From: a virus
Taxonomy: Duplodnaviria; Heunggongvirae; Uroviricota; Caudoviricetes
Length of the DNA stretch: 64,000 nucleotides
Virus record (IMG/VR): IMGVR_UViG_3300024268_000010
Strand: one strand, 5' to 3'
The translations under genes were made by a program, and so were the position numbers. Shown piece by piece: positions 34,588 to 51,296 of this stretch. The notes below the pieces were generated by a model. It worked only from the letters and a program-made list of their open reading frames with translations. It did no database searches and was not told the DNA's origin. Numbering within the stretch: position 1 is the first letter of the stretch; each line of letters starts with the position of its first letter.

Positions 34588-34603
34588 ATTTACTTCCTCC
34601 CTA

Positions 34604-35182
34604 TTAAATATTCAAACCAAAATTACGACCAATGGTGCTCAAGCCACCTGCATAACCAGAACCAACAGCAGCAAACTTCCATTCACCATTATGTCTGTAC
34701 AGTTCGCCAGCAACAATGCCAGTTTCCAGCGAAAAATCTTCATTCAACTCATACTTAAACAGTTCTTCGTTTGTGGTAATGTTATATGCTCGAATATAAG
34801 AATTGTCCACCATGCCAAAATTCTGAAGTCTTGTTTCTGCGTCATAAATCGTTGCTGCAAAACTAATCTTTGAGATATTGGTTGGCACTTTAGACAAATC
34901 AACCTTAATGGTTTCATCATCACCGTCACCAACACCACTTCTGTTGTCACCAGAATAATCGACTGCACCACTAGGATGTGTGGGCTGATTATAGAAAATG
35001 AAATCGTGTTCGCCGGTCACTTTGCCTGACGCATCGGTAAGAAATACCGATACATCCAAATCAAATTCATTGTTGCCATCATACTTATTGGTGTCCCAAC
35101 CAAGCCCAAATGCAACATTAACCAAGCCGCTGTTTCCTTTCGTCAGATCAATCTTCTGACCTTTTACCAAGCTAATAGACAT
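34604..35182 (-). CDS. TerD-domain protein (paralogue 3)
   Basis: GLGWD, GDNRSGVGDGDDE, FGMVDNSYIR. Confidence 0.85.
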   Translation of the reverse strand: MSISLVKGQKIDLTKGNSGLVNVAFGLGWDTNKYDGNNEFDLDVSVFLTDASGKVTGEHDFIFYNQPTHPSGAVDYSGDNRSGVGDGDDETIKVDLSKVPTNISKISFAATIYDAETRLQNFGMVDNSYIRAYNITTNEELFKYELNEDFSLETGIVAGELYRHNGEWKFAAVGSGYAGGLSTIGRNFGLNI

Positions 35183-35188
35183 ATTCTT

Positions 35189-37819
35189 TTATCTCCTTTT
35201 ATTAATTAAAATTTTTCTCATAATATCAATCGGGATTACGATGAACGACAATCCGATAACTACTGCCCACTGCATGGGGGTAAGGGCACAAACTTTCATA
35301 AAATCACCAGCAAGAGTACATACAAAGACTACGCCAAGCATGATACCAATTGCGATCTTGCTAAACAGTTTGTTTTTGCTAAGACCTGTAAACAGGTTAA
35401 TATGTTCGGTTCTAATATTAAAACCATTAAGCACTGCCATGAAACAGAGCAAAGCAAAGCGAGCGGTAAGTTTACTTGTTTCATCAGTAAACAATGTATT
35501 AGGAATTGCGAAAATTAAGATGGAGTATGCGATAAGAAAAGCAATGGCACTGCATGCAATTTTACATTTCGCACCACGGATGAAGAGTCCAGAACCTTTT
35601 TTGATAGGTTGTTCGTGCATATATTCTTCTTTGGGAGGCTCGCCACCAAATGACAGTGAGTTAAGAGAGTCCATAATAATGTTGACAAGAAGGATTTGTA
35701 CCGAAGCCAACACTGCCAAACCACCTGTCAGCATTGGGAAAATCATACTGAGTACAAGAAGAGAAATATTGATAGGCAACTGAAATTCAAGGAACATCAT
35801 GATATTGTGCATAAATGTTCTACCAAGCTCCACAGCTTTTACAACGGATGCGAAGTTATCATCGGTAAGAATGATATCGGATGCTTCTTTCGCAACATCA
35901 CTACCACTCTGCATACCAAATCCAACATCTGCTCTCTTCAAGGCGGGGGAGTCATTTACACCGTCACCAGTCATTGCGACCGACATACCAAGTTCTTGAG
36001 CCAAAGTAACCAATCTTAACTTTGTATTAGGGGAACATCTGGAAATTACTCTGAGACGAGGAATGATTTCTTTGACTTCGTCGTCTGACATTTTTTCAAA
36101 CTCATCGTTTGTCAATGCAACATCTCCATCTTTGTAAATTCCACATTCTTTTGCAACCGCAATTGCTGTTTCAATGCAGTCACCGGTGATTTCAATTACC
36201 TGAATACCCGCTTCGTGTGCAACACGAACTGCCTCAGGAACTTCTTTTCTTACAGGGTCAACCACACCAATGATACCCAAGAAAGTCATATCATTAGGAA
36301 GTTCATTTTCAACGAGCTTTCCGTTTGCAATACCAAGTGCAATGCATCTGATTGAGTTTGTCGTAAACTCTTTGATTTTTGCATTAAGTTCGTCTTTGTT
36401 TGCAAAACTTACAATGGAACCGTCACTTGTCATTGCAGAACTGCAAGCAGTGATAATCTTTTCTGGAGCACCTTTGTAATATGTAACTTCTTCCTCGTTG
36501 GTGCAAGCAGAATATTTGTTGACACTATTGAATACCTGTTTATCAAGTATGCCATATTCTGCAACAATATCATGTGCCTCTTTGGATGTTACCAATGATA
36601 GCACTGCTCTATCGATTGAGTTGCCACCAGTGATACAGTCATTTGAATCAAAGACGGCGCTATTGTTAAGAATAATATTGATTTTTAGAAAATCAAGCAA
36701 CATGGTGTTTTGTTCAATTTCGTTTCCGTTATAATCAACGATTGTTTTCGGAGACATAATACCAGTTGTCAGTGTGCCAGTTTTATCAGTGCAAATCAAA
36801 TTAACATATGCAAGTTCGGGAATTTTGCCGGGGTTTTTAGCAAGAATATTAAACTTTTCCATTGTTTTAACGTTCTGCTTTGTAACAAGCTTAACAATCA
36901 ACGGCAGTCCTTCTGGTACTGCGGCAACGACAATCGTAAGCGCGACAGAGAAATTTGAAGCGAACTTCTGAATAAGTTCCAGAACATTTCCTGTAAAATA
37001 CTGAGAAAATCCAACTTCCAAAATGCCCGTGATTGTCAATACAAAAAATGTAATGACTGCTGCAATTGTTCCCCATTTCGAAATGAATTCACTCAGCTTA
37101 TCGAGCGCAATGGTGAGTGCAGTCTTTGGAGCTTCCAATGTCTGCATTTTAACAAGTGTGTCACCGTTTACAGTATTAACGCCAACATCCGTGACTATCA
37201 TTTTACCTTCACCGGACATTACACTTGTTCCTGCAAACAAACAGTTCTGATTCGTGTATGCGTCAGTTGAAGTTGTTTTTGTGTGTATATAGTCTTTGAC
37301 AGGAGTTTTACGGCATTCTTTCGTTTCACCGTTAATGGCTGCGTTGTTTACACTAACCTTTCCTTCGACGATGTAACCATCTGCAAAAATTTCCTGACCC
37401 ATACCGATACAAACAACATCTCCAACTACAAGGTCGTCTTTGTTGATCGTTTGTACTTTTCCATCTCGAATAACATCACAATATCTTACCGATGTCTTGA
37501 GTCGCAATTCTGTGGCTGATTTTTGTACACCAAGACCTGTTCTGATTGCAATACCTGTGACAATTGCCAGAACCAGCATAATCATCAGAGGTTCAGAACA
37601 TTCCATTACACCGAGCGCCGCTAGTGCTAACTGCAGTACCGTGATTGCGATTAGAATTAGTGTAATCTTTTCGCTCAGTGCTTCTTTGGCAAAATCGTAC
37701 CACTTCTTTTGTTTTGGTTCAGGCAATTTGTTGCTACCATGCTTCCATCTGCTTTCAACTACCTGTTTTTGTGTCAATCCGTTCATCTTTTTTGTTTCTC
37801 CTTTTTTTGTTTCATTCAA
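35189..37819 (-). CDS. P-type cation-transporting ATPase (type II, Ca2+-ATPase-like)
   Basis: DKTGTLT phosphorylation site, TGDGVNDSPALKRADVGFGM hinge, about 10 TM segments, 876 aa. Confidence 0.85.
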   Translation of the reverse strand: MNETKKGETKKMNGLTQKQVVESRWKHGSNKLPEPKQKKWYDFAKEALSEKITLILIAITVLQLALAALGVMECSEPLMIMLVLAIVTGIAIRTGLGVQKSATELRLKTSVRYCDVIRDGKVQTINKDDLVVGDVVCIGMGQEIFADGYIVEGKVSVNNAAINGETKECRKTPVKDYIHTKTTSTDAYTNQNCLFAGTSVMSGEGKMIVTDVGVNTVNGDTLVKMQTLEAPKTALTIALDKLSEFISKWGTIAAVITFFVLTITGILEVGFSQYFTGNVLELIQKFASNFSVALTIVVAAVPEGLPLIVKLVTKQNVKTMEKFNILAKNPGKIPELAYVNLICTDKTGTLTTGIMSPKTIVDYNGNEIEQNTMLLDFLKINIILNNSAVFDSNDCITGGNSIDRAVLSLVTSKEAHDIVAEYGILDKQVFNSVNKYSACTNEEEVTYYKGAPEKIITACSSAMTSDGSIVSFANKDELNAKIKEFTTNSIRCIALGIANGKLVENELPNDMTFLGIIGVVDPVRKEVPEAVRVAHEAGIQVIEITGDCIETAIAVAKECGIYKDGDVALTNDEFEKMSDDEVKEIIPRLRVISRCSPNTKLRLVTLAQELGMSVAMTGDGVNDSPALKRADVGFGMQSGSDVAKEASDIILTDDNFASVVKAVELGRTFMHNIMMFLEFQLPINISLLVLSMIFPMLTGGLAVLASVQILLVNIIMDSLNSLSFGGEPPKEEYMHEQPIKKGSGLFIRGAKCKIACSAIAFLIAYSILIFAIPNTLFTDETSKLTARFALLCFMAVLNGFNIRTEHINLFTGLSKNKLFSKIAIGIMLGVVFVCTLAGDFMKVCALTPMQWAVVIGLSFIVIPIDIMRKILINKRR

Positions 37820-37839: not shown

Positions 37840-37867
37840 ATTATACTGATATTTTCAAATTTGTCAA
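37840..37867 (-). promoter_or_regulatory. canonical TTGACA-16-TATAAT promoter followed by the TACAATCCAAAATGATTGA leader
   Basis: On the - strand: TTGACAaatttgaaaatatcagTATAATagaatTACAATCCAAAATGATTGAATG; an AATTGTAAAT box lies about 20 nt upstream of the -35. Confidence 0.55.
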
Positions 37868-37901: not shown

Positions 37902-38930
37902 TTATATCTCACCTTTAACAATTCTCTCATTAACAGACGCCACGAACTCGTTAATTTTGTTGTAATCCGGGTTATCTGGTAACTCTGTTGTCTGCTTTGC
38001 CTTGTCGAGTCTTGCTTCTAGCTCATCTACAATCTCAAAAAATTCTGGGATTGGTTGTCTATTTTCGTCAAGATATTTACCATTACGAATATCCATAAGG
38101 AAATCATGATCTTTTTCTCTGTATGTAATAATTTCTCCATTGTTAAGAATATCAAGGCACATCAGATAAAGACGAACCAAATGCATCATGTGCTTCGACA
38201 GCTTGCCGTGTTCGATGGCATTCTGATTGCGTTTACCAATCTTGCCGTATTCTTTGACAATATTGTTCATTACAGACCACATACACTTATAATCTCTAAG
38301 AGGATAATGCTTGAGATTGACATCCATAAAGATTTCACTCTCGTACTCTTCCGACTCAGACTTGTCGATATAGAGTTTAATTGCGTCGTCATCGTATGTG
38401 AAGTATCTGGTCTTGAAATCATAGGATGCGTTTTCAATGCTATTCAGAATATGACGTTCCTGCTCCGTTTGAGATACCAATCTTGCAGCCTTATTGTCGA
38501 GACGACGTAATTGAGCATTAGCATAACCTCCAAATGAATGAACACAACGCTTTGAAAGGAATAAATGACGATGATCAAGTAATTCCTTACCTATCGGAGA
38601 GAGGTAGATATAATGTTCTGGCTTGCAACCTAATAGTTCAATTGTATTTGGATTCACATTTGTCAGAAGGGAAATCAATTTATTAAAACTATAAATTGTA
38701 GTATCAGTATCCTCGTTGACGAACTGCTCAAAATTCTTATTTGTTAAGATTTCATCTTTTGCATTTAATGCACAGCCACGGATATCAACATCAGACCCTT
38801 CCACATTAGTTCCATATGCATGACTTCCACCAAGAGTAAGAAGAATGATATTGGGACCGAGATGCTCGTTGGTTCTAAGGAAATTATATTCCGGCGTTTG
38901 TATTAGAGTTTTAATTTCATTAATTGTCAT
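37902..38930 (-). CDS. Pol-beta-superfamily nucleotidyltransferase (paralogue A)
   Basis: GGSHAYGTNVEGSDVDIRG, a GS...DxD nucleotidyltransferase motif. Confidence 0.5.
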   Translation of the reverse strand: MTINEIKTLIQTPEYNFLRTNEHLGPNIILLTLGGSHAYGTNVEGSDVDIRGCALNAKDEILTNKNFEQFVNEDTDTTIYSFNKLISLLTNVNPNTIELLGCKPEHYIYLSPIGKELLDHRHLFLSKRCVHSFGGYANAQLRRLDNKAARLVSQTEQERHILNSIENASYDFKTRYFTYDDDAIKLYIDKSESEEYESEIFMDVNLKHYPLRDYKCMWSVMNNIVKEYGKIGKRNQNAIEHGKLSKHMMHLVRLYLMCLDILNNGEIITYREKDHDFLMDIRNGKYLDENRQPIPEFFEIVDELEARLDKAKQTTELPDNPDYNKINEFVASVNERIVKGEI

Positions 38931-38957
38931 TTTATCACCTCAATCATTTTGTATGGT

Positions 38958-39836
38958 TTAATGAGCGTTTAAATCTGCTTCGTGAAGCAAATCTATCTGT
39001 TTCTTCAAGCACGGAGGTAGATTGTTGTAATACTTGGTGTTCATAAAAGGATCCATATGTGTGCTAATAAGCCAAGCAATATACGGAGTAACATATTGCA
39101 TACCATACGACACCCATGCTCCTACACATTGATGCTGATAATAATGTGCAGTTTCACAAGGATTGCCTTTATTATCTACGAATGCCTTGACATATGGTTT
39201 ACCAACATCATGATAGAATGCCGCAAACCCAATATCACTAGAATACACACCAATCTTATTAACAATATATTTGTTTGCCTCCAAACAATGGTCAAATACA
39301 TTTAATGTATGGTGAGGATTATCATGGGAAATCTGCATACTCGAACAAGTGGAATTTGCATAGTCATATGCATTAAAATCTTTTGGTTTAACAATCTGAA
39401 TTTCGTCAATACCTTCATCATAATAAGGGGCATGGAATCGTTTAAGCATTCGGTCAATAACTTCCTTGCCAACAGTACGTTCTCTCTCAGAGTCCCTTTC
39501 AATACAAACCTCAATAGGTGCCCAAGCAATATGACACTCAATCTTAGCAAACTTTGGACACGCTCCAATAATACCCATTCTATCCTTTCGGGTGACATTG
39601 GTTGCGTCATACAACACATCATGACCGTCATTAAGCGCCACGATAGCTCTATTTTGCATCAAAGAGAACACATCAACTGGATTTCCCTGTACGCTTTCAT
39701 CACCGTAAAGTTCTTTACGAATTTCGTCCGAACTTAAATGGACAGCATTTGAATTGTGTTGAATGTAATTTTTTGCATATGTGGTCTTTCCAGAACCCGG
39801 AATTCCACACAAAATTATCAGTTTTGGTCTATTCAT
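38958..39836 (-). CDS. P-loop polynucleotide-kinase-like domain fused to an HD phosphohydrolase domain
   Basis: Walker A (ILCGIPGSGKTTYAKNY) at the N-terminus; HD motifs at the C-terminus (HDNPHHTLNVFDH, FYHDVGKPY). Confidence 0.55.
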   Translation of the reverse strand: MNRPKLIILCGIPGSGKTTYAKNYIQHNSNAVHLSSDEIRKELYGDESVQGNPVDVFSLMQNRAIVALNDGHDVLYDATNVTRKDRMGIIGACPKFAKIECHIAWAPIEVCIERDSERERTVGKEVIDRMLKRFHAPYYDEGIDEIQIVKPKDFNAYDYANSTCSSMQISHDNPHHTLNVFDHCLEANKYIVNKIGVYSSDIGFAAFYHDVGKPYVKAFVDNKGNPCETAHYYQHQCVGAWVSYGMQYVTPYIAWLISTHMDPFMNTKYYNNLPPCLKKQIDLLHEADLNAH

Positions 39837-40672
39837 TTGTTAATCTCCAATTCTTTTGTAATTCCTATTTTGATAATGTTATATGCCACTTCTTCAAAAA
39901 GTGCATATACGGTTTCGTCAACAGTGTTGTTGCAGGTTTTAAGATAGTCATTGTACATTTTTTGAATATTGTCCATAGTTTCCTTACCCAGGCATCTTGC
40001 GTCATCAAGATTATATTTGCCCTTCTTAACATCGATAAGCCAGTCTGGTTCAGCAGAAATTAGGCAATCGCCAAAAGAACAACCATTTACCCATCTATGC
40101 ATAAATTCTTTAATTCTAAACAGATGGTGCAATTGTTTTACGTCATAGCCCCATTTGTCAATTACATGCATTCTCGAAGGGTACTTATGCTCCATCGCGT
40201 GATACTTTTCACCCGCAATACCCTTCATTGATTTAATCAAAGACGGCAAATTCATCGAAACAATGGAATCCCTTGCCTCAACAAGTTTATTCCATTCCTC
40301 TTCATAGATGGGATTGATAATATAATATTTTGTATATAGGATTTCAAGAAAATTAAGATTTGACTTCTTGAATGTTTCAAGTAAAATTCTAATATCCTTA
40401 AAGTCGATATGTTCATCATTCTCTCTGACGTATGTGGTACTAGTCATCTTGCTTTCTGCAAGTTCTTTAAGAGATGGTGCTAATACGCACTTTGTATCGA
40501 CGTCTGACTCATTATAATCGAGGCCATAGTTGCCTGCCCCTTGGCAGTACACGCCGACAATTCTCTCTTTGGGATATTGTGTGATAGCGTCATTGTAATG
40601 ATCCCACATTCGCTTCATTATCCAGTCATAACTATGAAAATTCATGTTAATCTCCTTAATTTCCAATTTCAA
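39833..40672 (-). CDS. Pol-beta-superfamily nucleotidyltransferase (paralogue B)
   Basis: GAGNYGLDYNESDVDTK motif, paralogous to 37902-38930. Confidence 0.5.
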   Translation of the reverse strand: MKLEIKEINMNFHSYDWIMKRMWDHYNDAITQYPKERIVGVYCQGAGNYGLDYNESDVDTKCVLAPSLKELAESKMTSTTYVRENDEHIDFKDIRILLETFKKSNLNFLEILYTKYYIINPIYEEEWNKLVEARDSIVSMNLPSLIKSMKGIAGEKYHAMEHKYPSRMHVIDKWGYDVKQLHHLFRIKEFMHRWVNGCSFGDCLISAEPDWLIDVKKGKYNLDDARCLGKETMDNIQKMYNDYLKTCNNTVDETVYALFEEVAYNIIKIGITKELEINK

Positions 40673-41873
40673 TCAGATACTTAATAGTCATTTGGTCATT
40701 TCTATAAAATACAATCTCGTCATTTCTCAACATACCCTTGTCTGCTTTTGCATGCAAACAATTACATTTGGGTGTTTTCTTCTGAAGCACATCATAATTC
40801 AAGTGATAACAACTACTGTCGTGCTGATAAATAACATAAGGTGTTCCATATGCAACTTCAAACAACGCCATGTAGGCCGTGTTATTACCACCATGTGTCC
40901 AATACGCTCCTGACAAAGATGTATATCCAATGGATTTTTGACACTTAGGGGCGAAATAGATGCCATCGCTAAACATCGATCCTGTGTATACGGCATTACT
41001 AGGACGAATCATAAGCCCGGTTTTGATAATTGAAAACCAGTTCTCGCTACGGCTACCGTGGAATAACAGTCTAGTGTCCTTGATATCGTTTTCATTAACA
41101 AACTTATCAAAGCGCTCTTGGGTCTTGAGGTTAGTAACTCTCCAAGCCTTTCTAAACTTATCAACAGACTCGTTCATTAGTGTCTTAATCAGAGCTACAT
41201 CATCTTTCGTCGCCTCTTCCATCACAAGGCTAAGTTCCTCCAAGATAGTCTGTTGTTTCTTTTCATTCGTTTCAACAGGTTCAATATCCGGCTTGACATA
41301 AATCTGTCCACGCATTACATCGAGCAGATCCTGCTCCTTAGTAATAATCTTCGAAAAGTCATCCGTATTACTAGCCAAATAACACCGTACATCACCCATT
41401 CTACGAGGAATAACTGTAAACAACTTAAGTAGATTGGCATTAAACTCTTCCACAGTCGCACTATTATTAGCAAGTTCGTCGATAATTTTCTGTGCGGCGT
41501 CAACCATATCCTTGGTTACAGCAGACGCCTTAACAGTATAGTTCTTGCGAACCGTCTCACGAGCAAGACTTTGCAACTTTTCAACGATTAGTCTTACGGC
41601 TTCGTTTTCAATTTCTCTATAAGGACTTTCGGGATTGGTAGAAGAAATTTCCTCTACCAAGTCTTTCCGAAGATCTGTTACATCCACGTATCCTTTTTTT
41701 AACTTTGCTTTGATTTGTGATTCGAATTTAGAGATTGGATAGTATACCGTTGTTTTAGTTGCGTCAATGCGTCCATACTCCACTCTACATCTATCGCCTT
41801 CCGGAAAAATGTTGTAATATTTATTGTTATTTTGTGCCGTTGTCATAACGAGATAAGTGGGCCGTACTTCCAT
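40656..41873 (-). CDS. WGR-domain poly/mono-ADP-ribose polymerase (PARP catalytic domain)
   Basis: N-terminal WGR (RVEYGRIDA); C-terminal PARP core LLFHGSRSENWFSIIKTGLMIRP...YTGSMFSDGIYFAP, matching the human PARP1 block LWHGSRTTNFAGILSQGL...GYMFGKGIYFA. Confidence 0.75.
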   Translation of the reverse strand: MEVRPTYLVMTTAQNNNKYYNIFPEGDRCRVEYGRIDATKTTVYYPISKFESQIKAKLKKGYVDVTDLRKDLVEEISSTNPESPYREIENEAVRLIVEKLQSLARETVRKNYTVKASAVTKDMVDAAQKIIDELANNSATVEEFNANLLKLFTVIPRRMGDVRCYLASNTDDFSKIITKEQDLLDVMRGQIYVKPDIEPVETNEKKQQTILEELSLVMEEATKDDVALIKTLMNESVDKFRKAWRVTNLKTQERFDKFVNENDIKDTRLLFHGSRSENWFSIIKTGLMIRPSNAVYTGSMFSDGIYFAPKCQKSIGYTSLSGAYWTHGGNNTAYMALFEVAYGTPYVIYQHDSSCYHLNYDVLQKKTPKCNCLHAKADKGMLRNDEIVFYRNDQMTIKYLIEIGN

Positions 41874-41885
41874 GATGTCCTCCTA

Positions 41886-42311
41886 TTAAAGTTCACAAAT
41901 CAAAATCTCAACGTCTGTATCTTCGAACACTTCACAAATAATATCGTAAACATCGTCCCACTGAAGGCGATCAAGACCACAACCGATTTTCGGCATTGCC
42001 AACTTAGTTGCGTCAAGGTTTACCATAATTTCTTTCATCACTTCAAGTGCTTCTCTTACGGCTTCATATCTAGGTTTATGATAACACTTCGGCTTCGTGA
42101 CAAGATTGAACACATTATCAATCGGAAGTGCGTCTCCACCCTCGTATGCATAATTATCATAGTTCTTAAAGAGCTTAAATCTCATGTTGTAAACTTCATC
42201 AAACTTCTTCGCAATACCGGCACCGAGAGCAAAGTCGGCACTAATGCAGTGTGCCAGATAATAGCCCTGAGGCACCGTAAACAAGTCTCTTTTTTCAATT
42301 GTAATATTCAT
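41886..42311 (-). CDS. macro-domain protein (ADP-ribose binding/hydrolase)
   Basis: 141 aa; ALGAGIAKKF glycine-rich macro motif, IGCGLDRL. Confidence 0.7.
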   Translation of the reverse strand: MNITIEKRDLFTVPQGYYLAHCISADFALGAGIAKKFDEVYNMRFKLFKNYDNYAYEGGDALPIDNVFNLVTKPKCYHKPRYEAVREALEVMKEIMVNLDATKLAMPKIGCGLDRLQWDDVYDIICEVFEDTDVEILICEL

Positions 42312-42326
42312 AATTCTGTTCTCCTA

Positions 42327-43499
42327 TTATTTAAAAATTGTTACTGACTCTCTGTCTCGTCTATCAGACAAATAAATATTGTTTATAAAACCTCTTTGCA
42401 ATACCGAATAATCAAACTGCTTTTCGTTTGTGTGAGTAATTGCAATAGATGTAATGGCATTAAATTTTTTCAAATCACTCTTATTGATATCATTGTGTAC
42501 ACGATTCAGCAATTGTTCTGGAATGAGCTCACCATAACGCAAGTTGCCTTGAAACTCATTAGTAGGGTTGCTTTCATCAATCATCATTGAATTAATGCAG
42601 TCCTTGCCACATTCTGTTTCAAATCTGCCGGCACCATGCCTTGTCATATAAGTTCGACTTACATAACACACCTCAAGATTCGCCTTATCAAATACACCAT
42701 TAATCACCTTAAGAGGATTTGTAATGCCCGTGTTGCTTGGAGTGGTATTATCTCCATAGAACGTCATATTTTGGTCGAGAAGAAGTCCTTGACCATTTTC
42801 GAACACAACATTGTTAAATTTCTTTAAGAACGCATATGGAGCAGTCGCCGTATGCAAACACATATATTTAACATCTGCAATAAAATTATCGATCAGAACT
42901 TTAGAGTATACAATTTCCTTCCATTCACACGGAATGCTTGTAATCCCGTGTTCTTTAAGTCTGTCCATCATATAAGAATCCCTAAGGCTTTTCAAATACG
43001 ATACTTGTGTATCGTAAGATAGGTTTGCAAACTCATTCAATGTGAATACGCACGGTTTTTGCGCATATCTATATACAGTCTCCCATATACCCATTCCACA
43101 ACTGCCATGCTTTTTATTGTCTCGAACTTCTTCTCCAATCTGATTAATAAACATGTCATAAGGAGTAGTCCATCTGCAATTTGGATGAATATACATAAAT
43201 GGCTTGTAACCAATGCTCCACAATTCGTTGTACTCTTTGACAAAACTCATAGGGTTAAGTATATAATCTTCCATGCAGTATGTGCTTGCTCCGGCTAATG
43301 TTCCAGAACTAAAATGCTTAAATATAAATTTTTCACCGTTTGGTGTTGTAACAGTATGGCCTCTTTGTGCTCCACCATTACTCATAACAACTATACAATT
43401 TTTCCCTTGTGAAGTTGATTGATGACAGAAATAATCCGTCATCAATCCCTTACCTTCATCGCCAAAATTAGCACCGATTACAACCTTTATGTTTGTCAT
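42327..43499 (-). CDS. adenylosuccinate-synthetase (PurA) family enzyme, divergent (PurZ-like candidate)
   Basis: P-loop GDEGKG, GHTV, VFENGQGLLLD, TRHGAG and TTPSNTG blocks match the PurA family, but overall identity is low. Confidence 0.7.
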   Translation of the reverse strand: MTNIKVVIGANFGDEGKGLMTDYFCHQSTSQGKNCIVVMSNGGAQRGHTVTTPNGEKFIFKHFSSGTLAGASTYCMEDYILNPMSFVKEYNELWSIGYKPFMYIHPNCRWTTPYDMFINQIGEEVRDNKKHGSCGMGIWETVYRYAQKPCVFTLNEFANLSYDTQVSYLKSLRDSYMMDRLKEHGITSIPCEWKEIVYSKVLIDNFIADVKYMCLHTATAPYAFLKKFNNVVFENGQGLLLDQNMTFYGDNTTPSNTGITNPLKVINGVFDKANLEVCYVSRTYMTRHGAGRFETECGKDCINSMMIDESNPTNEFQGNLRYGELIPEQLLNRVHNDINKSDLKKFNAITSIAITHTNEKQFDYSVLQRGFINNIYLSDRRDRESVTIFK

Positions 43500-43500
43500 A

Positions 43501-44373
43501 TTACCAGCAAATTTCTCCGTTATTATTTATTGACACAACGACATCACTCATAGATTCAGACGCCTTTACAATGATATCTACAATCGTGTCTGCAATAGTT
43601 TCAAGCGTTACCTTTTTGTAATGTTCCGTATCCAAAATAGACTGCCAAGAAGCGTCAATTCCAGAATCCCATCTATAACCATGGTCAACATCCAAGTGAT
43701 AAATATCGTACTTCTCACTTACTTCATCAAACAGAGATTTCGAATCGATATCTGCTTGTATTCTATCTCCAGTTACAGAATTGAGCCGTTCGTGGGGCAG
43801 ATAGGGGTTAATGCGTTCGTCACCCATTGTGATGATAATGCCCTTCTTGCCTCTATTCCAACAATCCAATTTAGTATGTCTTGCCCCCATATACCATGCC
43901 GCTGTATATGATTCATATGCGTTGCCGCCGCCACCGTATTCAAAATATACTTTGTCCATCTGCTCAGCAATGCGAATATCAGATTCAAACTGTGAAATTT
44001 GAACCGGACATCTATCACAAGCTAAATCACCAATGCCCATAATCAAAAACTCAACATCAGTAACCTTGTCATACAAGTTCGTCATCACCACATTGAGCTT
44101 TTTAGCCACTTCAACCGCTGCTTTGCCCATACTACCAGTAACATCAAGCGCAAGAATTACAGGAATTGTATTAGGGTGCTCTTCCGTATCAATACATTCT
44201 CTCATGATATTATACGGGTTCAGAGCGTTATCAATGGTTTTTGCTTTGAACATTTCCTGCGAAGACATTGTTGCCGTAATGCTTCCATCAAGGGAAATGG
44301 CACTTTTATCAATACCTCTTGTTGTTGTGCAATAACTTGTAAAACTTGACGTTGTCCAACTTCCGCCACCCAT
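43501..44373 (-). CDS. von Willebrand factor A (vWA) domain protein
   Basis: MIDAS DVTGSMG with downstream T and D residues; 290 aa. Confidence 0.55.
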   Translation of the reverse strand: MGGGSWTTSSFTSYCTTTRGIDKSAISLDGSITATMSSQEMFKAKTIDNALNPYNIMRECIDTEEHPNTIPVILALDVTGSMGKAAVEVAKKLNVVMTNLYDKVTDVEFLIMGIGDLACDRCPVQISQFESDIRIAEQMDKVYFEYGGGGNAYESYTAAWYMGARHTKLDCWNRGKKGIIITMGDERINPYLPHERLNSVTGDRIQADIDSKSLFDEVSEKYDIYHLDVDHGYRWDSGIDASWQSILDTEHYKKVTLETIADTIVDIIVKASESMSDVVVSINNNGEICW

Positions 44374-44981
44374 TACTCATCATCCTCCGTTTCATCAATG
44401 TCTTCAACAACTACTTCAGCAGAATCTTCATCGTCATCAAAGTTGAAAAGACCACCGAACATATCACTTGTTCCACCATTCATCATCATAAGAGGAAGCA
44501 TAGCTCCGAATCCACCACTGTGAGCACCATTACTACCTTTCATCATTTCATACATCATCATATACTTCATAATTTTGTTCATGCCTTTTTTGCCATTAAA
44601 GATATCCTGACCAAACATAGATACGATTTTGCCATAGAAATAGGTATTGCCCATAAAGACGTGTCTTTCAGGGAGAATAGTGTCTACCGTAGAGTCTTCA
44701 TAGTTAATTACGGTAATCTTGTTCTTGCCAGTCTCAATGACGCACTTAGGTTTTCCACCTACGAGAATAATGTCACCAATTTCGACCTTGTTAGTGGGAA
44801 TGACAAAGAAGAAATCCTCGCCAATGTCGAATACGAAATTTGAGCAGTTAGTAAGTCTGCCCGTTTTTACATTGTAAGACTTGTAGCCTCCAGAGGTCTT
44901 TACTGCGATACCCCCGTTCATTGAGAGTCTGCACATGCCGGGTGCGACTTTACCAAACATTCCATTCAAGTTGTTAATCAT
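44373..44981 (-). CDS. hypothetical Gly/Met-rich protein with an acidic tail
   Basis: 202 aa; ATGA overlap with the vWA gene. Confidence 0.45.
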   Translation of the reverse strand: MINNLNGMFGKVAPGMCRLSMNGGIAVKTSGGYKSYNVKTGRLTNCSNFVFDIGEDFFFVIPTNKVEIGDIILVGGKPKCVIETGKNKITVINYEDSTVDTILPERHVFMGNTYFYGKIVSMFGQDIFNGKKGMNKIMKYMMMYEMMKGSNGAHSGGFGAMLPLMMMNGGTSDMFGGLFNFDDDEDSAEVVVEDIDETEDDE

Positions 44982-45014
44982 TTGTTTTTTCTCCTTTTAT
45001 ATATATAAATTTTA

Positions 45015-45923
45015 TTAATAATCATTCTGTATCGTTTCCAATATTCTTTCTAATATTTGATCAACATTATCAAGTTCCCAATATGGAATTTCATATAGAG
45101 GGATATTTAACCTCTTACAACCCTCTCTGCGTTCTTCATCGCGTCTTACGGTTTGTTTGAAATTTTCTTCATTGTCCCATCCATATCCACTATAACTATA
45201 GTGTTGTGGTCCTTGATATTCTATAAGGCACAATAGATTATCACAGTTATCAAAAATTGCAAAATCAAAAAATGGTCTTCTTCCGCTAGATAAAAATATA
45301 TCGTTATGAGAATACTGTGGTATAAAATTAATTTTATGGCTTGTTAACCATTGATTAATTTTCATTTCGCCTTTTGATTTAATGCAACCACAAGAAGTTG
45401 TATTTCCGTTTTTTAAATTGGTTGAATCAACTATTGTTCCTCCGCCACAATCACACTTGCACCGATAACATACGTGGTCAAATCTATTATTTGCAACTCG
45501 TTCTACTACTACCAATTTGCCAAACCGTTGTCCTACTAGCGACTTAAAAGTTGCTTCACTAACTCTTTGTTTTTGATAACATCCACAAGACTGAGTGTTA
45601 TTGTTTGTTAAATTCGATGTTTTAACAACAACTTCGTTACCACAATCACATATACATTTTTGATAAATTGGTGGAATCGATTCAATTACAGTTAATTTGC
45701 CAAACTTTTGACCAGTCAAATCAAGTTTATAAAAATGTTGATCTTTAATGTGTCCACAGCTAGTTGTGTGCCCACTAGTTAGGTAATCGGTTCTGACTTC
45801 TGTCATTCTTCCACAAGAACATTGGCAAACCCATCTAGTATATTTGTCATTTCTTTTTTCTGCTGGTATCAATGCGATAAGTTCGCCAAATTGTATCCCT
45901 GTCAAATTTAATTTTTTAGCCAT
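45015..45923 (-). CDS. Cys-rich triple-repeat zinc-ribbon protein with a C-terminal endonuclease-like (PD-(D/E)xK / Vsr-DUF559-like) domain
   Basis: Three repeats of GxxFGxLxV...CxCxCG...TxSCGC; C-terminal FDFAIF...LCLIEYQGPQHY. Confidence 0.4.
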   Translation of the reverse strand: MAKKLNLTGIQFGELIALIPAEKRNDKYTRWVCQCSCGRMTEVRTDYLTSGHTTSCGHIKDQHFYKLDLTGQKFGKLTVIESIPPIYQKCICDCGNEVVVKTSNLTNNNTQSCGCYQKQRVSEATFKSLVGQRFGKLVVVERVANNRFDHVCYRCKCDCGGGTIVDSTNLKNGNTTSCGCIKSKGEMKINQWLTSHKINFIPQYSHNDIFLSSGRRPFFDFAIFDNCDNLLCLIEYQGPQHYSYSGYGWDNEENFKQTVRRDEERREGCKRLNIPLYEIPYWELDNVDQILERILETIQNDY

Positions 45924-45932
45924 AATATTTTA

Positions 45933-47438
45933 TTACATTTCAGAAAGAATGTCATCGCTTACATTATCGACTCCGCCTTCTTCAACTTGTGCCACTGCAA
46001 TTCCGGACAACGCCTTAAAGAACCAGTTCTTGTGCTTATATGCACAGAACTTAGGACGGTTGATAATACGCACTACAACTCCCTCACGAATGTGCGTCTT
46101 ACCGACAGGATCGGGACCATCGTAGAACTGTTCAGCAATATCTTTTACTGCTTCGCCAATATGAGCTTCCTCATATTTAGCAACAAAGCGCTCTTCTCCT
46201 TCTGGAGTGGTATAGTACAATATAGAGCCATTGTTGTTCAAAATTGCTTTTGCAAAAACAGGGACAGTCTTTACACCAATCTGCTCACAACGGTAACGCA
46301 TAAAGTCGGGGCTATACTCAACAGTGAAGCCGTCTTCGTTGGTCATGGTCATACGATATACATAGATGTCTGACTGAGGCGTTTTTTCATTATAAACATT
46401 AACACCTTCAATCATATCCTCTGTCTCAACCAACCGAAGACCATCAGGTTCGCATCCATAAGAGAACACTGTGGTCTGTCCATACTGTTTAACAAAATCT
46501 TTATCGTTGAGTTTCTTATTGTCTCCACTTGCCATAATAGGGGCACCAGTATGAGTGTATCCCACTACTTCGTAGAAAATTTCCTCACCCTTATTCAACT
46601 TGCCCTCAAAGAACTTTGAATGTGCTTCACGGAATTCATTACTTCCATAATATCCACCCTCAAAATTCTCAAGTACGGTACGACGAGTACCAGATACGTA
46701 GCCCCAATCATAAATTGGCTCGCCGTGCTTAAGGCTATGATATAGCGCATTACGTCCATCCGAACCCCAATTCTTTTTTGCCTTGACTGCCATTATAAGC
46801 TTGTTGATGAATCTACGATAAGAAGAATCTTTATAACCAACAAGAACAGGAAGATAGCCAGTTCTCTGTGAAGTGCCATGCATCTTGAGTGTAATCTCAA
46901 TCTCATCACCGGGCTTAAATGCGCCAAGATTGTACGCAAGCTGTTCAGTATCTGCGTGTTCTGAAAACAAAGGTGCTACGGGCACTTTCTTCTTTCGAGT
47001 CTTGTTACCAGAAGAATAATGTCCTCTTCTATTCTGAGCGCGAGGTACATATTTGCAACAAATCTCGTGTCCGTTAAAACTATTAATTGCTCCCTCACGA
47101 AGAGTGGTAATATCACCAAAAGATTCAAGTGCCTTCAGAGGAAGGAAGAGGCCATCCGATTTCTCACCCCGAAGCTTAATAGCAGTTACATTTCTCTTGT
47201 CGGGATCCATATAACCACCGATATTATTACCGTTCTCATCCTTCTTGCGAAGCAGGTTGTTTGCCTCTGCGAATTCTACGGAAAGCTGACCGTCCGAAGG
47301 GAAATAAATTCCTAACTGATTATCCTGATACTCCATCGATACGATTACGGCATTGCCAAAGCATTCACCAATCTGTAGTCGATCTGCATTTGGATGTTTG
47401 TGTAGGTTTTTGATTCTTGTAATGTAAGCGTTGTACAT
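45933..47438 (-). CDS. RNA ligase (Rnl2-like nucleotidyltransferase motif I KMHGT) with an N-terminal tRNA-binding (Myf/CsaA-like) domain
   Basis: N-terminal NLHKHPNADRLQIGE, a tRNA-binding-domain signature; TLKMHGTSQRTGY resembles the KxHGT(N) motif I of the T4 Rnl2 family. Confidence 0.5.
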   Translation of the reverse strand: MYNAYITRIKNLHKHPNADRLQIGECFGNAVIVSMEYQDNQLGIYFPSDGQLSVEFAEANNLLRKKDENGNNIGGYMDPDKRNVTAIKLRGEKSDGLFLPLKALESFGDITTLREGAINSFNGHEICCKYVPRAQNRRGHYSSGNKTRKKKVPVAPLFSEHADTEQLAYNLGAFKPGDEIEITLKMHGTSQRTGYLPVLVGYKDSSYRRFINKLIMAVKAKKNWGSDGRNALYHSLKHGEPIYDWGYVSGTRRTVLENFEGGYYGSNEFREAHSKFFEGKLNKGEEIFYEVVGYTHTGAPIMASGDNKKLNDKDFVKQYGQTTVFSYGCEPDGLRLVETEDMIEGVNVYNEKTPQSDIYVYRMTMTNEDGFTVEYSPDFMRYRCEQIGVKTVPVFAKAILNNNGSILYYTTPEGEERFVAKYEEAHIGEAVKDIAEQFYDGPDPVGKTHIREGVVVRIINRPKFCAYKHKNWFFKALSGIAVAQVEEGGVDNVSDDILSEM

Positions 47439-48524: not shown

Positions 48525-48552
48525 ATTATAGCATATATTTTTAAAATGTCAA
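48525..48552 (-). promoter_or_regulatory. canonical TTGACA-16-TATAAT promoter followed by the ACACAGCAGAATGATTGGAGG leader
   Basis: On the - strand: TTGACAttttaaaaatatatgcTATAATataaACACAGCAGAATGATTGGAGG; an AAATGTAAAT box lies upstream. Confidence 0.55.
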
Positions 48553-48582: not shown

Positions 48583-48608
48583 ATAAAAAAGGAGAGATTA
48601 CTCTCTCC
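48583..48608 (-). terminator. terminator after the endolysin gene
   Basis: On the - strand: ggagagagtaatctctcc followed by ttttttatta. Confidence 0.5.
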
Positions 48609-49605: not shown

Positions 49606-49680
49606 TGGCTGGGATGGAAGGGATCGAACCTTCGAATACAGGAGTCAAAGTCCTGTGCCTTACCACTTGGCGACATCCCA
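49606..49680 (-). tRNA. tRNA-Gln (anticodon TTG)
   Basis: Hand-folded cloverleaf: acceptor TGGGATG/CATCCCA, anticodon loop CUUUGAC, T-loop TTCGATC, CCA encoded. Confidence 0.7.
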
Positions 49681-49769
49681 ATATATTGCGCTTTTAACTT
49701 CGATAGGAGCGCTAACCTATCAAGCAATCACCTTCATCCACTTTGGAGTCATACCAAGGTTGCTCGTAT

Positions 49770-50845
49770 GATATGATTTTTGTTGACAAAAGCACACGAG
49801 TGTGTACGATTATCTGTGTAGCATGGCGCCACATTGAGGTGTCGATCCCCATACCTTTCACAGTACCTTTCGTTTTCAAGACGAAGTGCGAAGCCGTCCG
49901 CATTAATGTGGCATTTGGCGGAAAGCGTAGTATTCGAAACTAATACACTAAACATGTACGCATCCCTTAGCAGGGGAGCCGCAATCCTCTTGCGTTCACT
50001 TTCCATATTAAGAGCCGAGTATTCTATTATCCATGGAAGCCCCTCGGCTGGGCTACTCTGTTATCCTGAGTAAGGTGTGTCCTTATCGGACTAAATGCAT
50101 CAACCGCCGAAACGATTGAAGGAACCTTTTCTACTGCTAGTAGATAGGCACAATTTGGTTAACCAAAAGACAGTAACGATATGGACAAAGCCGGCTTCGA
50201 ACCAACCTCACCAACAGCATCGTCCCTCACAATGCTTAGTGCCCAGTATCTACATCTTTTGGTATACGATTTCTATCTAAGCATCGCAACGACACGTTCT
50301 CGTCTTCCGCCGCTGGCAGTTCATTAGCTTCCCACTTATCCCTCAATTCAATCCGTCCCCAGCACGCATGCTGTCGAGGGGGCCAACTACTTTTCGATAG
50401 TATTGTTGTTTATAGGCTGTTCATCTCACATCCATTTACCACAGCTGCTAGACCTCACCTTTATAATAGTATCGACCTATTTCCTGGATGTTTACTCGGG
50501 TTAACAGCCCGTCCCAGGCTTCGTGGCACCTATAATTAACTTTCTTGTTCTGGCGCCCTCAAGAGAAAGGGTTCGTTAATGTGCCATAACGATAGGCTCC
50601 CTCACAAAAACTATCTGGAGAATAACACCAAACAATCGCGGCTTGTAGCTGCCCGTTATGCCCAGCTTCTATATTCCCACTATGCCCTTCGCTACAAATT
50701 AAAGCGAGTTTTTTATAAACAAGTACTCACCCTCCCGATTCTCCAAGTGAGACATCTGCACGATTGACCCATAATATTCAACCCTTTTCGGTGTAACAAA
50801 CAGATGTGACTATTTTATTGATCGTTCTTTTATCACAATACTTGT
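49770..50845. other. about 1.1 kb of GC-rich, ORF-poor sequence between tRNA-Gln and tRNA-Trp; probably a structured ncRNA of unknown identity
   Basis: Markedly higher GC than its surroundings, many local hairpins, and no plausible ORF with an RBS. Confidence 0.3.
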
Positions 50846-50849
50846 TCTT

Positions 50850-50924
50850 TGGCAGGAGTGGATTGAAATCGAACAATCGTCAACAGTTTTGGAGACTGTT
50901 GTGCTACCATTGCACCACACTCCT
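50850..50924 (-). tRNA. tRNA-Trp (anticodon CCA)
   Basis: Acceptor AGGAGTG/CACTCCT, anticodon loop CUCCAAA, CCA encoded. Confidence 0.6.
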
Positions 50925-50935
50925 ATATAACTAGC

Positions 50936-51018
50936 CACCTTTATAAGACGGGATTCGAACCCGCGTCTTCAGCTTTTCACGGCTGACGCTCTAACCTCTA
51001 AGCTACACTGGCAATGAT
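50936..51018 (-). pseudogene. tRNA-like element (D-, anticodon- and T-arms; GUGAAAA Phe-like loop) with no pairable acceptor stem
   Basis: GCGGGTTCGAATCCCGT T-arm and CAGCC-GTGAAAA-GCTG arm; the 3' flank TTATAAAGG has no 5' partner. Confidence 0.25.
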
Positions 51019-51053
51019 GAAGCCAATAGAATTAAAGTTGCTGTAGGTGACTA

Positions 51054-51129: not shown

Positions 51130-51187
51130 ATATGTTGCCTTTTTACAGAAGGCTAACTGTTTCTGGAGGTATAGAATGAAAAGTGGT

Positions 51188-51259: not shown

Positions 51260-51296
51260 AATATAGCATGGCTTTCGCCATACTTAGTTGTGGCAT

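What the first reader, a model, noticed from the sequence alone, without database searches (positions are those of the whole stretch)
37902..47438. Candidate RNA (tRNA) repair toolkit: two paralogous Pol-beta nucleotidyltransferases flanking a kinase-HD fusion, plus an RNA ligase with a tRNA-binding domain
A P-loop polynucleotide-kinase-like domain is fused to an HD phosphohydrolase. It is bracketed by two paralogous minimal nucleotidyltransferases (GS...SDVD motifs). Further along the operon lies an Rnl2-like ligase (KMHGT motif I) whose N-terminus has the HPNADRL signature of the Myf/CsaA tRNA-binding fold. That set supplies 5' kinase, 2',3'-phosphoesterase and ligase activities, and possibly 3'-end (CCA-type) nucleotide addition. 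It is the same enzymology T4 uses (Pnk + Rnl1) to heal anticodon-nuclease damage. Here it sits beside a large tRNA gene cluster, some of whose members have insertions that would themselves need processing.
Basis: inference. Interest (0 to 1): 0.65.

Follow-up and report, generated by a model that had tools for sequence, protein, structure and literature searches.

The report
Phage RNA break-repair operon
A large phage carries a gene set that should mend cut RNAs such as tRNAs (an end-cleaning kinase-phosphatase, two enzymes that add back lost nucleotides, and an RNA ligase); the set is real and well conserved, but it is a new example of an already described kind of phage counter-defence.

Summary
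On the minus strand, 37902-47438 holds:
- an RlaP nucleotidyltransferase (37902-38930);
- a polynucleotide-kinase/HD-phosphoesterase fusion (38958-39836);
- a second, divergent RlaP (39833-40645);
- an ATP-dependent RNA ligase (45933-47438).

Catalytic motifs are intact in all four. All lie in one apparent operon (promoter ~48525, next promoter ~37867).

In 29 of 29 informative related phage loci, an RNA ligase sits within 3 kb upstream of the kinase-HD gene. The ligase type varies: long Rnl5, short Rnl5 or T4 Rnl1-type. An RlaP often lies between them and a Thg1-like enzyme often follows. In this window about 5.2 kb of cargo (HNH, vWA-like, PurA-like, Macro, PARP) has split the ancestral ligase-RlaP-kinase-HD block.

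This is the heal-and-seal RNA repair system predicted by Burroughs and Aravind, with RlaP now shown to add 1-2 nt to broken RNA 3' ends. CCA addition is not supported.

The nearby 'tRNAs with insertions' are conserved tRNA-shaped RNAs next to a Ro-like gene. They are more likely Y-RNA-like partners than intron-bearing tRNAs.

Verdict: new member of a known kind; modest interest.

The parts
48525..48552 (-). Likely operon promoter: perfect TTGACA-16-TATAAT with extended TG. It sits just after a terminator-like hairpin at 48591-48608.
45933..47438 (-). ATP-dependent RNA ligase of the Rnl5 type, 501 aa. It has an N-terminal OB domain (about residues 1-130, HPNADRL) and a C-terminal nucleotidyltransferase domain. 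The motifs are I K185-x-H187-G188, III E290/G293, IV E452-G453 and V K468-x-K470. Three variable insertions lie at about residues 205-240, 330-355 and 400-430.
40656..45923 (-). Six co-transcribed 'cargo' genes that split the ancestral ligase-RlaP-kinase-HD block. They are not shown to take part in repair. The genes are HNH/homing-endonuclease-like (45015-45923), orf202 (44373-44981), a phrog_2971 protein of unknown function, called vWA-like in this report from reading alone (43501-44373), adenylosuccinate-synthetase-like (42327-43499), a DarG-like Macro domain (41886-42311) and a WGR-like plus PARP catalytic domain protein (40656-41873).
   Evidence: In relative L006 the three repair genes are contiguous. 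The Macro+PARP pair sits elsewhere in L003, L021 and L026.
39833..40645 (-). RlaP2, a divergent RlaP-family Pol-beta nucleotidyltransferase of 270 aa counted from the ATG at 40645. It carries G-A-G...S-D-V-D plus the conserved E78/D81/D84 region. Its stop codon overlaps the kinase-HD start by 4 nt.
   Evidence: phrog_388, 6e-17. (homologues, invariant residues). (hhalign against RlaP1, E 7e-4). (25/28 homologues hit PF10127). (lies between ligase and kinase-HD in 13 related loci).
38958..39836 (-). Pnk-HD, a bifunctional end-healing enzyme. The N-terminal P-loop 5'-OH polynucleotide kinase has G11..S15-G16-K17-x-T19, D37, R40, D77, R118 and R120. The C-terminal HD phosphoesterase has H176, H183, H209-D210, H235, H260 and D288.
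   Evidence: AAA_33, HD. (Pnkp1 5.8e-12, C. thermocellum Pnkp kinase domain, PSTK, T4 Pnk). (TIGR04075 bacterial Pnkp 3.6e-15; HDIG; HD of the CCA enzyme). (invariant residues in 15 homologues).
37902..38930 (-). RlaP1, a canonical RlaP nucleotidyltransferase of 342 aa with G-G-S...S-D-V-D. It is homologous to T4 NrdC.11. It is the last gene before the next perfect promoter at 37840-37867.
   Evidence: PF10127, 67.5 bits. (phrog_388, 1.7e-59). (T4 nrdC.11: 24% identity over 87% of the length, 2e-8; 826 phage records). (promoter).

Best explanation
This is a phage-encoded RNA heal-and-seal repair operon. Its most likely use is to restore tRNAs, or other translation RNAs, that host anticodon nucleases or ribotoxins cut during infection.

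Proposed steps:
1. A host nuclease leaves a 2',3'-cyclic phosphate (or 3'-phosphate) end and a 5'-OH end.
2. The HD domain of Pnk-HD removes the 3' phosphate to give a 3'-OH. Its P-loop domain phosphorylates the 5'-OH.
3. [quoted passage not shown]
4. The Rnl5-type ligase self-adenylylates on K185, with help from its N-terminal OB domain. It transfers AMP to the 5'-phosphate and seals the break.

What is shown here: gene content, intact catalytic motifs, the fold of the ligase, a single apparent transcription unit, and conserved linkage of the genes.

What is inferred from characterised relatives: every enzymatic step and the identity of the substrate.
For: - Domain assignments and catalytic residues are intact in all four proteins.
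- In 29/29 informative loci chosen only by kinase-HD homology, an RNA ligase gene lies within 3 kb upstream on the same strand. The ligase family varies: 7 long Rnl5, 14 short Rnl5, 8 T4 Rnl1-type. This non-orthologous replacement argues for a functional pairing.
- RlaP2 lies between the ligase and the kinase-HD gene in 13 loci. A Thg1-like 5'-end tRNA repair enzyme follows in 14 loci.
- The ligase-to-Pnk-HD pair is also adjacent in the Bacillus phages PBC2 and Kirov and in Cytobacillus/Priestia genomes.
- RlaP enzymes add 1-2 NMP to RNA 3'-OH ends, prefer broken-tRNA mimics, and are needed to restore aminoacylation of over-damaged tRNA (PMC12776372).
- Phage RNA repair sets of ligase, polynucleotide kinase, phosphoesterase (HAD, and occasionally HD-like) and RlaP are already described (PMC7824862).
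- The operon sits beside 8-9 phage tRNA genes.
Against: - No activity was measured.
- Characterised Rnl5 enzymes (DraRnl, NgrRnl) seal nicks in duplexes with an RNA 3'-OH strand. They have not been shown to seal broken anticodon loops, and loss of DraRnl sensitises Deinococcus to radiation (PMC4408790, PMC5397189).
- Runella HD-Pnk heals both DNA and RNA ends, and its partner ligase had no identified substrate (PMC6097658).
- The ligase scores below the TIGR02306 cut-off (54 against 151 bits) and carries about 160 extra residues.
- The window's own RlaP2 misses the Pfam threshold and has GA instead of GS.
- The host and its nucleases are unknown.
- Six unrelated genes sit inside the operon.
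Confidence: 0.72

Rival explanations
1. The enzymes repair nicks in duplex nucleic acid that carry ribonucleotides at the 3' side, rather than broken tRNAs. Such nicks arise at RNA-DNA junctions during phage replication, recombination or DNA damage.
For: - Rnl5 enzymes are template-directed nick sealers that need an RNA 3'-OH strand (PMC4408790).
- A DraRnl knockout is radiation-sensitive (PMC5397189).
- Runella HD-Pnk is described as a DNA/RNA end-healing enzyme (PMC6097658).
- The window is rich in replication genes: Pol III alpha, NAD ligase, RecJ-like and a helicase.
Against: - The ligase is freely exchanged with the T4 Rnl1 type, the classic tRNA anticodon-loop ligase, in related loci.
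- RlaP does not act on DNA (PMC12776372).
- Thg1-like tRNA 5'-end repair enzymes join the same cluster in relatives.
- The phage has a separate NAD-dependent DNA ligase.
Confidence: 0.12
2. The toolkit matures phage-encoded RNAs. It would heal and seal after excision of the 25-56 nt insertions in the three tRNA-shaped genes at 53900-54290, which would amount to protein-catalysed tRNA splicing in a phage.
For: - Three tandem tRNA-like genes carry insertions in or near the anticodon arm.
- For one of them, removing 44 nt leaves a perfect class II tRNA-Tyr(GUA) cloverleaf.
- Relatives keep such genes in phages that also carry the Pnk-HD gene.
Against: - Orthologous elements in related phages keep the acceptor, D and T arms and a covarying hairpin followed by an invariant ACWGCAA motif. 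The 'anticodon' and what follows are not conserved.
- The same motif occurs in three stem-closed elements with no tRNA body.
- The elements always sit directly upstream of a DUF2828 gene that depositors annotate as 'Ro-like RNA-binding protein'. This matches Ro/Y-RNA loci, where Y RNAs mimic tRNA (PMC4201824).
- No splicing endonuclease was found.
Confidence: 0.08
3. The genes are functionally unrelated neighbours. The transferases would modify small molecules or proteins, like antibiotic or MNT-type nucleotidyltransferases, and the kinase-HD would act on nucleotides.
For: - Minimal Pol-beta transferases and P-loop kinases are functionally diverse.
- The kinase domain also gives weak hits to adenylate and other nucleotide kinases.
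- The operon holds unrelated cargo genes.
Against: - The best matches are specifically RNA-repair families: RlaP, Pnkp1, bacterial Pnkp and PSTK.
- Linkage to an RNA ligase is conserved in every informative locus despite ligase-type replacement.
- RlaP substrates were shown to be RNA, not protein or DNA.
Confidence: 0.05

Closest known systems
RlaP-containing RNA repair systems. These were predicted by Burroughs and Aravind (2016) and surveyed in jumbo phages by Iyer et al. 2021 (PMC7824862). RlaP biochemistry is in Carruthers, Fatma and Huang 2025 (PMC12776372).
   Same: The component logic is the same: an ATP-dependent RNA ligase, a polynucleotide kinase, a 3'-phosphoesterase and an RlaP nucleotidyltransferase in one neighbourhood, in a phage that also carries many tRNA genes. 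RlaP1 is a clear PF10127 member and a homologue of T4 NrdC.11.
   Different: There are two very divergent RlaP genes in one operon. The phosphoesterase is HD rather than the usual HAD. The biochemically studied RlaPs come from RtcB operons of Pseudomonas, not from an Rnl5 operon.
Bacteriophage T4 Pnkp + Rnl1 tRNA repair, which counters the PrrC anticodon nuclease
   Same: It is a two-step heal-and-seal system: 5' kinase plus 3' phosphatase, then an ATP-dependent ligase. T4 also encodes an RlaP (NrdC.11). In related loci the ligase is actually of the T4 Rnl1 type.
   Different: The phosphatase here is an HD domain, not the DxDxT/HAD domain of T4 Pnkp. The ligase here is Rnl5, not Rnl1. Here the genes are clustered. 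In my recollection the T4 genes are scattered; I did not check that.
Runella slithyformis HD-Pnk with its adjacent ligase (Munir and Shuman 2017; described in PMC6097658)
   Same: It is a fusion of an HD 2',3'-phosphoesterase with a P-loop 5'-OH polynucleotide kinase, and it is encoded next to an ATP-dependent ligase.
   Different: The domain order is reversed: the kinase is N-terminal and HD is C-terminal here. The Runella cluster also has Tpt1 and a methyltransferase-HIT protein.
Rnl5 RNA ligases: Naegleria gruberi NgrRnl and Deinococcus radiodurans DraRnl
   Different: It is 501 aa against about 340 aa, with three insertions. Motif I has His (KMHG, as in T4 Rnl2) where NgrRnl has Asp172. 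The TIGR02306 score is below its cut-off. Sequence identity is about 14-19%.
Bacterial Ro60 (Rsr) / Y RNA (YrlA) loci, often linked to RtcB repair operons. This is the comparison for the neighbouring RNA genes.
   Same: A Ro-like protein gene is flanked by several small structured RNAs, some of which mimic tRNA. It lies near RNA repair genes.
   Different: The protein is DUF2828/DUF7788 and showed no sequence-level match to solved Ro60. The RNAs keep the normal tRNA strand order, with the anticodon arm replaced by a hairpin plus an ACWGCAA module. They are not the permuted YrlA layout with its GNCGAA motif. The Rfam YrlA score is far below threshold.

Membership tests
RlaP (PF10127) - RlaP1, 37902-38930 | Match to the family profile above the curated cut-off | tested here: met
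   67.5 bits against a cut-off of 23, covering profile positions 12-247 of 249.
RlaP (PF10127) - RlaP1, 37902-38930 | Pol-beta catalytic signature: hG[GS], then [DE]x[DE] | tested here: met
   G-G-S-H-A-Y-G...S-D-V-D, read directly from the sequence.
RlaP (PF10127) - RlaP2, 39833-40645 | Match to the family profile | tested here: inconclusive
   The window protein itself has no hit at E<=0.01. However, 25 of 28 homologues (54-81% identical) hit PF10127, with a best E of 8e-7. It also scores phrog_388 at 6e-17 and hhalign against RlaP1 at E 7e-4.
RlaP | Genomic association with an RNA ligase | tested here: met
   Both RlaPs share an operon with the ligase. RlaP2 homologues lie directly between a ligase and the kinase-HD gene in 13 related loci.
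RlaP | Adds 1-2 NMP to the 3'-OH of RNA | not testable with these tools
   This is a biochemical property, shown for the Pseudomonas enzymes only (PMC12776372).
Rnl5 RNA ligase (NgrRnl/DraRnl) | N-terminal OB domain joined to a C-terminal nucleotidyltransferase domain, with no C-terminal appendage | tested here: met
Rnl5 RNA ligase (NgrRnl/DraRnl) | Covalent nucleotidyltransferase motifs I, III, IV and V, including the motif I lysine | tested here: met
   K185, H187, G188, E290, G293, E452, G453, K468 and K470 are invariant in 60 sequences that are 33-83% identical to the window protein.
Rnl5 RNA ligase (NgrRnl/DraRnl) | Equivalog-level match to TIGR02306 (DRB0094 family) | tested here: not met
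   54 bits against a cut-off of 151, and only residues 6-195 align. It is a divergent branch, not an equivalog.
Rnl2 RNA ligase (T4 Rnl2) | N-terminal NTase domain followed by the Rnl2-specific C-terminal domain | tested here: not met
tRNA_bind (PF01588: Myf/CsaA/Trbp111/EMAPII OB domain) | Profile match above the cut-off | tested here: not met
   15 bits against a cut-off of 27, E 0.027, and only residues 83-103 align.
tRNA_bind (PF01588: Myf/CsaA/Trbp111/EMAPII OB domain) | Same three-dimensional fold | tested here: met
HD-Pnk (Runella type) | HD phosphoesterase fused to a P-loop 5'-OH polynucleotide kinase, next to a ligase gene | tested here: met
HD-Pnk (Runella type) | Domain order: HD N-terminal, kinase C-terminal | tested here: not met
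   The kinase is residues 1-150 and HD is residues 170-292.
T4-type Pnkp | Kinase fused to a DxDxT (HAD) 3'-phosphatase | tested here: not met
   Only the kinase region aligns to T4 Pnk (residues 5-47, E 0.003-0.01). The C-terminal domain is HD.
CCA-adding enzyme | Match to a CCA-adding / poly(A) polymerase-type nucleotidyltransferase profile | tested here: not met
   Neither transferase hit any nucleotidyltransferase family other than RlaP above its cut-off in Pfam or NCBIfam (RlaP1 also gave a sub-threshold NTP_transf_2 hit, 19.5 bits against 21). The only CCA-enzyme similarity is the HD domain of Pnk-HD to the HD region of TIGR02692.

The most novel reading that the evidence does not exclude
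The repair enzymes may be one half of a larger phage RNA-surveillance island. The other half would be a previously undescribed family of tRNA-shaped RNAs. In these RNAs the anticodon arm is replaced by a covarying hairpin plus an invariant ACWGCAA motif. They are arrayed beside a Ro-like (DUF2828) protein gene. These RNAs could be scaffolds or decoys that recruit the Rnl5/RlaP/Pnk-HD enzymes to damaged tRNAs. In the boldest form they would be substrates that are cut and re-ligated, giving protein-only tRNA splicing in a phage and, for example, a functional tRNA-Tyr.
Probability: 0.12. Interest if true: 0.75.

Novelty: new member of a known kind. Interest (0 to 1): 0.32.

Why it matters
If the prediction holds, this phage lineage offers a compact four-enzyme RNA repair pathway that could be rebuilt in vitro. 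The lineage consists of abundant, roughly 150-175 kb phages from anaerobic microbiomes.

Three features make it useful for experiments:
- It combines an uncharacterised kinase-HD end-healing enzyme with the reverse domain order of Runella HD-Pnk.
- It has two very different RlaP enzymes in one operon, which allows a direct test of whether they have distinct specificities.
- It has an Rnl5 ligase, a class whose natural substrate is still unknown.

The free exchange of Rnl5 and Rnl1-type ligases at the same locus suggests that Rnl5 enzymes can serve in tRNA repair. That would address an open question about the family. The concept itself is already published, so the finding extends known biology rather than changing it.

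Tried and rejected
- Megablast of the region against 50,697 phage records found nothing, so there is no close cultured relative.
- phmmer of the ligase against PDB sequences gave only noise. A family profile gave only weak NgrRnl hits, E 0.37.
- The first AlphaFold run used 39 close homologues and failed (pLDDT 40). It was discarded. A second run with 60 diverse representatives succeeded.
- phmmer of RlaP1 against PDB sequences found no hit.
- BLASTP of the two transferases against each other was barely significant, so 'paralogous' holds only at family level.
- The Burroughs and Aravind 2016 and Munir and Shuman 2017 papers could not be retrieved. What I say about them comes from papers that cite them.
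- The DUF2828 protein and its family profile gave no sequence match to solved Ro60 structures. 'Ro-like' therefore rests on depositors' annotation.
- The weak Rfam YrlA hit (25.7 bits against 69) was rejected as the known tandem-tRNA artefact (PMC4201824).
- An exact-match search for the tRNA-Tyr-like anticodon region in viral contigs found nothing.
- ARAGORN's 'intron' models for the Val- and Cys-like elements were rejected as forced fits.
- PurZ (a 2-aminoadenine genome) was considered for 42327-43499. It is not favoured, because PurA models score much better and the GDEGKG motif is intact.
- A Prevotella host is suggested by one MAG label, but I did not adopt it. The promoters are of the TTGACA/TATAAT type and the closest isolates are Bacillus phages.

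Full report
**Setting.** The window is part of a phage genome of about 175 kb. Contigs of 174.8 kb carrying identical genes occur in several metagenomes. The genome encodes a serine recombinase, anaerobic ribonucleotide reductase, Pol III alpha, NAD-dependent DNA ligase, NAD salvage enzymes, three TerD proteins and a P-type ATPase. It has no close cultured relative at the DNA level. All genes of the finding are on the minus strand.

**The observation.** Domain searches confirm each part.
- 37902-38930 is a clear member of Pfam RlaP, 'RNA repair pathway DNA polymerase beta family' (67.5 bits against a cut-off of 23), and of phrog_388. It is homologous over 87% of its length to T4 NrdC.11, which a recent preprint lists as the T4 RlaP.
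- 38958-39836 has an N-terminal AAA_33 P-loop kinase. Its best solved relative is Pnkp1 of the bacterial Pnkp1-Rnl-Hen1 RNA repair complex. The next best are seryl-tRNA(Sec) kinase, the Clostridium thermocellum Pnkp kinase domain and T4 Pnk. NCBIfam's best models are bacterial Pnkp and PSTK.
- Its C-terminal third is an HD domain. It passes the Pfam cut-off when scanned alone and resembles the HD region of CCA-adding enzymes.
- Across 15 homologues that are 30-71% identical, the kinase residues are invariant: G11, S15, G16, K17, T19, D37, R40, D77, R118 and R120. The HD residues H176, H183, H209-D210, H235 and H260 are also invariant. D288 is kept in at least 90% of the sequences.
- 39833-40672 has no Pfam hit of its own but matches phrog_388 at 6e-17. 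Of 28 homologues, 25 hit PF10127. A profile of the family aligns to the catalytic core of RlaP1. Homologues start at the ATG at 40645. In this phage the glycine-serine motif reads GA, while the DVD motif and a conserved acidic cluster are kept.
- The two transferases are about 22% identical. They are two distant members of one family.

**The ligase.** 45933-47438 matches phrog_968 'RNA ligase' (7e-59), the PHA02142 OB domain and, weakly, Pfam RNA_ligase. It matches TIGR02306, the Deinococcus DRB0094 RNA ligase family, at 1.2e-14, which is below the equivalog cut-off.

The family is large: 2087 clusters at 50% identity have E<=1e-3. A first structure prediction with close homologues failed. A second prediction with 60 diverse sequences gave pLDDT 87.8 and pTM 0.85.

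- Foldseek's first 13 PDB hits are all Naegleria gruberi RNA ligase (about 1e-15). T4 Rnl2 follows at 7.6e-6.
- K185/H187/G188 (motif I), E290/G293 (III), E452/G453 (IV) and K468/K470 (V) are invariant.

The enzyme is therefore Rnl5-type: an N-terminal OB domain plus a C-terminal nucleotidyltransferase domain (PMC4408790, PMC7261155). Motif I looks like that of Rnl2, and there are about 160 extra residues in three insertions.

**Operon structure.** A perfect extended promoter lies at 48552-48525, just after a terminator-like hairpin. The next perfect promoter is at 37867-37840, immediately after RlaP1. Gene spacing is tight, and RlaP2 and Pnk-HD overlap by 4 nt. The unit therefore probably runs from about 48525 to 37902. 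It contains three small unknown genes, the ligase, six other genes, RlaP2, Pnk-HD and RlaP1.

**Comparative evidence.** I fetched 28 viral loci by Pnk-HD homology alone, plus the Bacillus phages PBC2 and Kirov.
- In every locus not truncated upstream (29/29), an RNA ligase gene lies within 3 kb upstream on the same strand.
- The ligase is of three kinds: the long Rnl5-like form found in this window (7 loci), a shorter Rnl5-like form of about 390 aa with strong PHA02142 and RNA_ligase hits (14 loci), or a T4 Rnl1-type ligase (8 loci).
- RlaP2 homologues lie between the ligase and Pnk-HD in 13 loci. Thg1-like enzymes follow Pnk-HD within 6 kb in 14 loci. RlaP1 occurs in none of them, so it is particular to this phage. 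The window has no Thg1 and no second ligase.
- One relative (L006) has the three genes contiguous. The 5.2 kb between the ligase and RlaP2 here is therefore inserted cargo. The PARP-Macro pair in it sits at other positions in relatives.
- In bacterial assemblies, full-length Pnk-HD genes of Cytobacillus and Priestia are directly preceded by Rnl1-type ligase genes.

Replacement of the ligase by an unrelated ligase family, with linkage retained, is the strongest computational sign that the ligase and Pnk-HD work together.

**Mechanism.** By homology, Pnk-HD should convert 2',3'-cyclic-phosphate/5'-OH breaks into 3'-OH/5'-phosphate ends. The ligase should then seal them. RlaP enzymes should add back one or two nucleotides when the break has been trimmed, as shown for the Pseudomonas RlaPs. 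None of this was measured for these proteins.

The main alternative is sealing of ribonucleotide-containing nicks in duplexes, which is the only activity shown for Rnl5 enzymes. The interchange with Rnl1-type ligases, the RNA-only specificity of RlaP and the recruitment of Thg1 in relatives favour tRNA or RNA repair.

**Comparison with known systems.** The concept is published. RlaP was named for its association with RNA ligases, as recounted in PMC12776372. The jumbo-phage survey describes ligase plus polynucleotide kinase plus phosphoesterase plus RlaP sets, and notes occasional HD-like phosphatases. Runella HD-Pnk is the characterised kinase/HD fusion, but with the opposite domain order.

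What is particular here is the kinase-then-HD order, two divergent RlaPs in one operon, and an enlarged Rnl5 ligase. I rate it a new member of a known kind.

**The neighbouring RNA genes.** Eight or nine ordinary tRNA genes lie at 49606-51551. The 'tRNAs with insertions' are three tandem elements at 53900-54290.
- Related phages keep one to three such elements of 113-133 nt directly upstream of their homologue of the 52001-53608 gene. That gene carries DUF2828+DUF7788 and is annotated in many phage records as 'Ro-like RNA-binding protein'.
- Alignments show covarying acceptor and T stems.
- They also show a hairpin that, by my reading of the alignment, covaries, followed by an invariant ACWGCAA motif. 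There is no conserved anticodon.
- The motif recurs in three stem-closed elements that lack a tRNA body. Six of its nine occurrences in the window fall in this RNA-gene region.

These features fit Y-RNA-like partners of the Ro-like protein better than intron-bearing tRNAs (compare PMC4201824). Only one element would yield a perfect tRNA-Tyr if 44 nt were removed. That keeps a small probability alive for a processing role.

Noticed in passing
window 53600-54290 (minus strand); also L008, L014, L035-L047 just upstream of their DUF2828 genes: This is a conserved family of tRNA-shaped RNAs of 113-133 nt. The anticodon arm is replaced by a covarying hairpin followed by an invariant ACWGCAA motif. 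Here there are three tandem copies, plus three stem-closed elements that have the same motif but no tRNA body. All lie directly upstream of a DUF2828/DUF7788 gene (52001-53608) annotated elsewhere as a Ro-like RNA-binding protein. They are possibly a new, non-permuted kind of Y-RNA-like tRNA mimic. No Rfam family matches.
   Followed up: partly
window 50947-51006 and 51034-51044 (minus strand): ARAGORN misses this tRNA-like gene. Rfam scores it at 45.9 bits but aligns only model positions 7-64, with one extra base in the anticodon loop. The ACAGCAACTTT motif lies just upstream, between it and tRNA-Gly.
   Followed up: no
window 40656-42311 (minus strand): A PARP-type ADP-ribosyltransferase sits next to a DarG-like Macro domain (8e-11). 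The PARP protein has a weak WGR-like N-terminus (E 0.003) and a PARP catalytic domain (1.9e-22); by eye its H-Y-E residues appear to be present. The pair sits at different positions in relatives (L003, L021, L026), as if it were a mobile two-gene cassette. Its target is unknown. Here it lies inside the RNA repair operon.
   Followed up: partly
window 42327-43499 (minus strand): This is an adenylosuccinate-synthetase-like gene in the PHROG family named after PurZ. It scores much better against PurA models (9e-27) than against PurZ (3e-9), and it keeps the GDEGKG motif. It is adjacent to a protein of phrog_2971 (unknown function; I call it vWA-like from reading alone). Whether the phage modifies its adenines was not examined.
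   Followed up: partly
L028 6994-7062 and 10001-10549; L029 10001-10881; L027 8613-9730: In related phages the Pnk-HD gene is split by about 2.9 kb of inserted DNA (L028) or frameshifted (L029). An Rnl1-type ligase gene is split in L027. These are possible intron or homing-endonuclease insertions, or decay of the repair genes.
   Followed up: no
L010, L013, L030 at 7725-9998; representatives P0243, P0250, P0253, P0258, P0260, P0379: Some ligase homologues are about 760-810 aa, roughly twice the usual length. This indicates fusion to, or insertion of, an extra module, possibly an HNH domain as reported for some phage ligases.
   Followed up: no
window 23074-26585 (minus strand): A C5 cytosine DNA methylase appears to be split into two ORFs (25761-26585 and 23074-24636). 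An HNH endonuclease ORF (25069-25686) lies between them. This suggests an intron or homing-endonuclease interruption.
   Followed up: no
window 26853-37819 (minus strand): Directly downstream of the repair operon is a stress and NAD block. It holds a P-type cation ATPase, three TerD paralogues, PspA-like and SPFH proteins, DUF5662, nicotinate phosphoribosyltransferase, an isochorismatase-type (nicotinamidase-like) enzyme and an NAD-dependent DNA ligase.
   Followed up: no
L003 10851-11747; L009 10885-11709 and 12 other related loci: Thg1-like enzymes (tRNA-His guanylyltransferase, a 3'-5' polymerase) occupy the position downstream of Pnk-HD in relatives. This window has RlaP1 there instead. 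The position looks like a variable 'nucleotide restoration' slot in the operon.
   Followed up: partly
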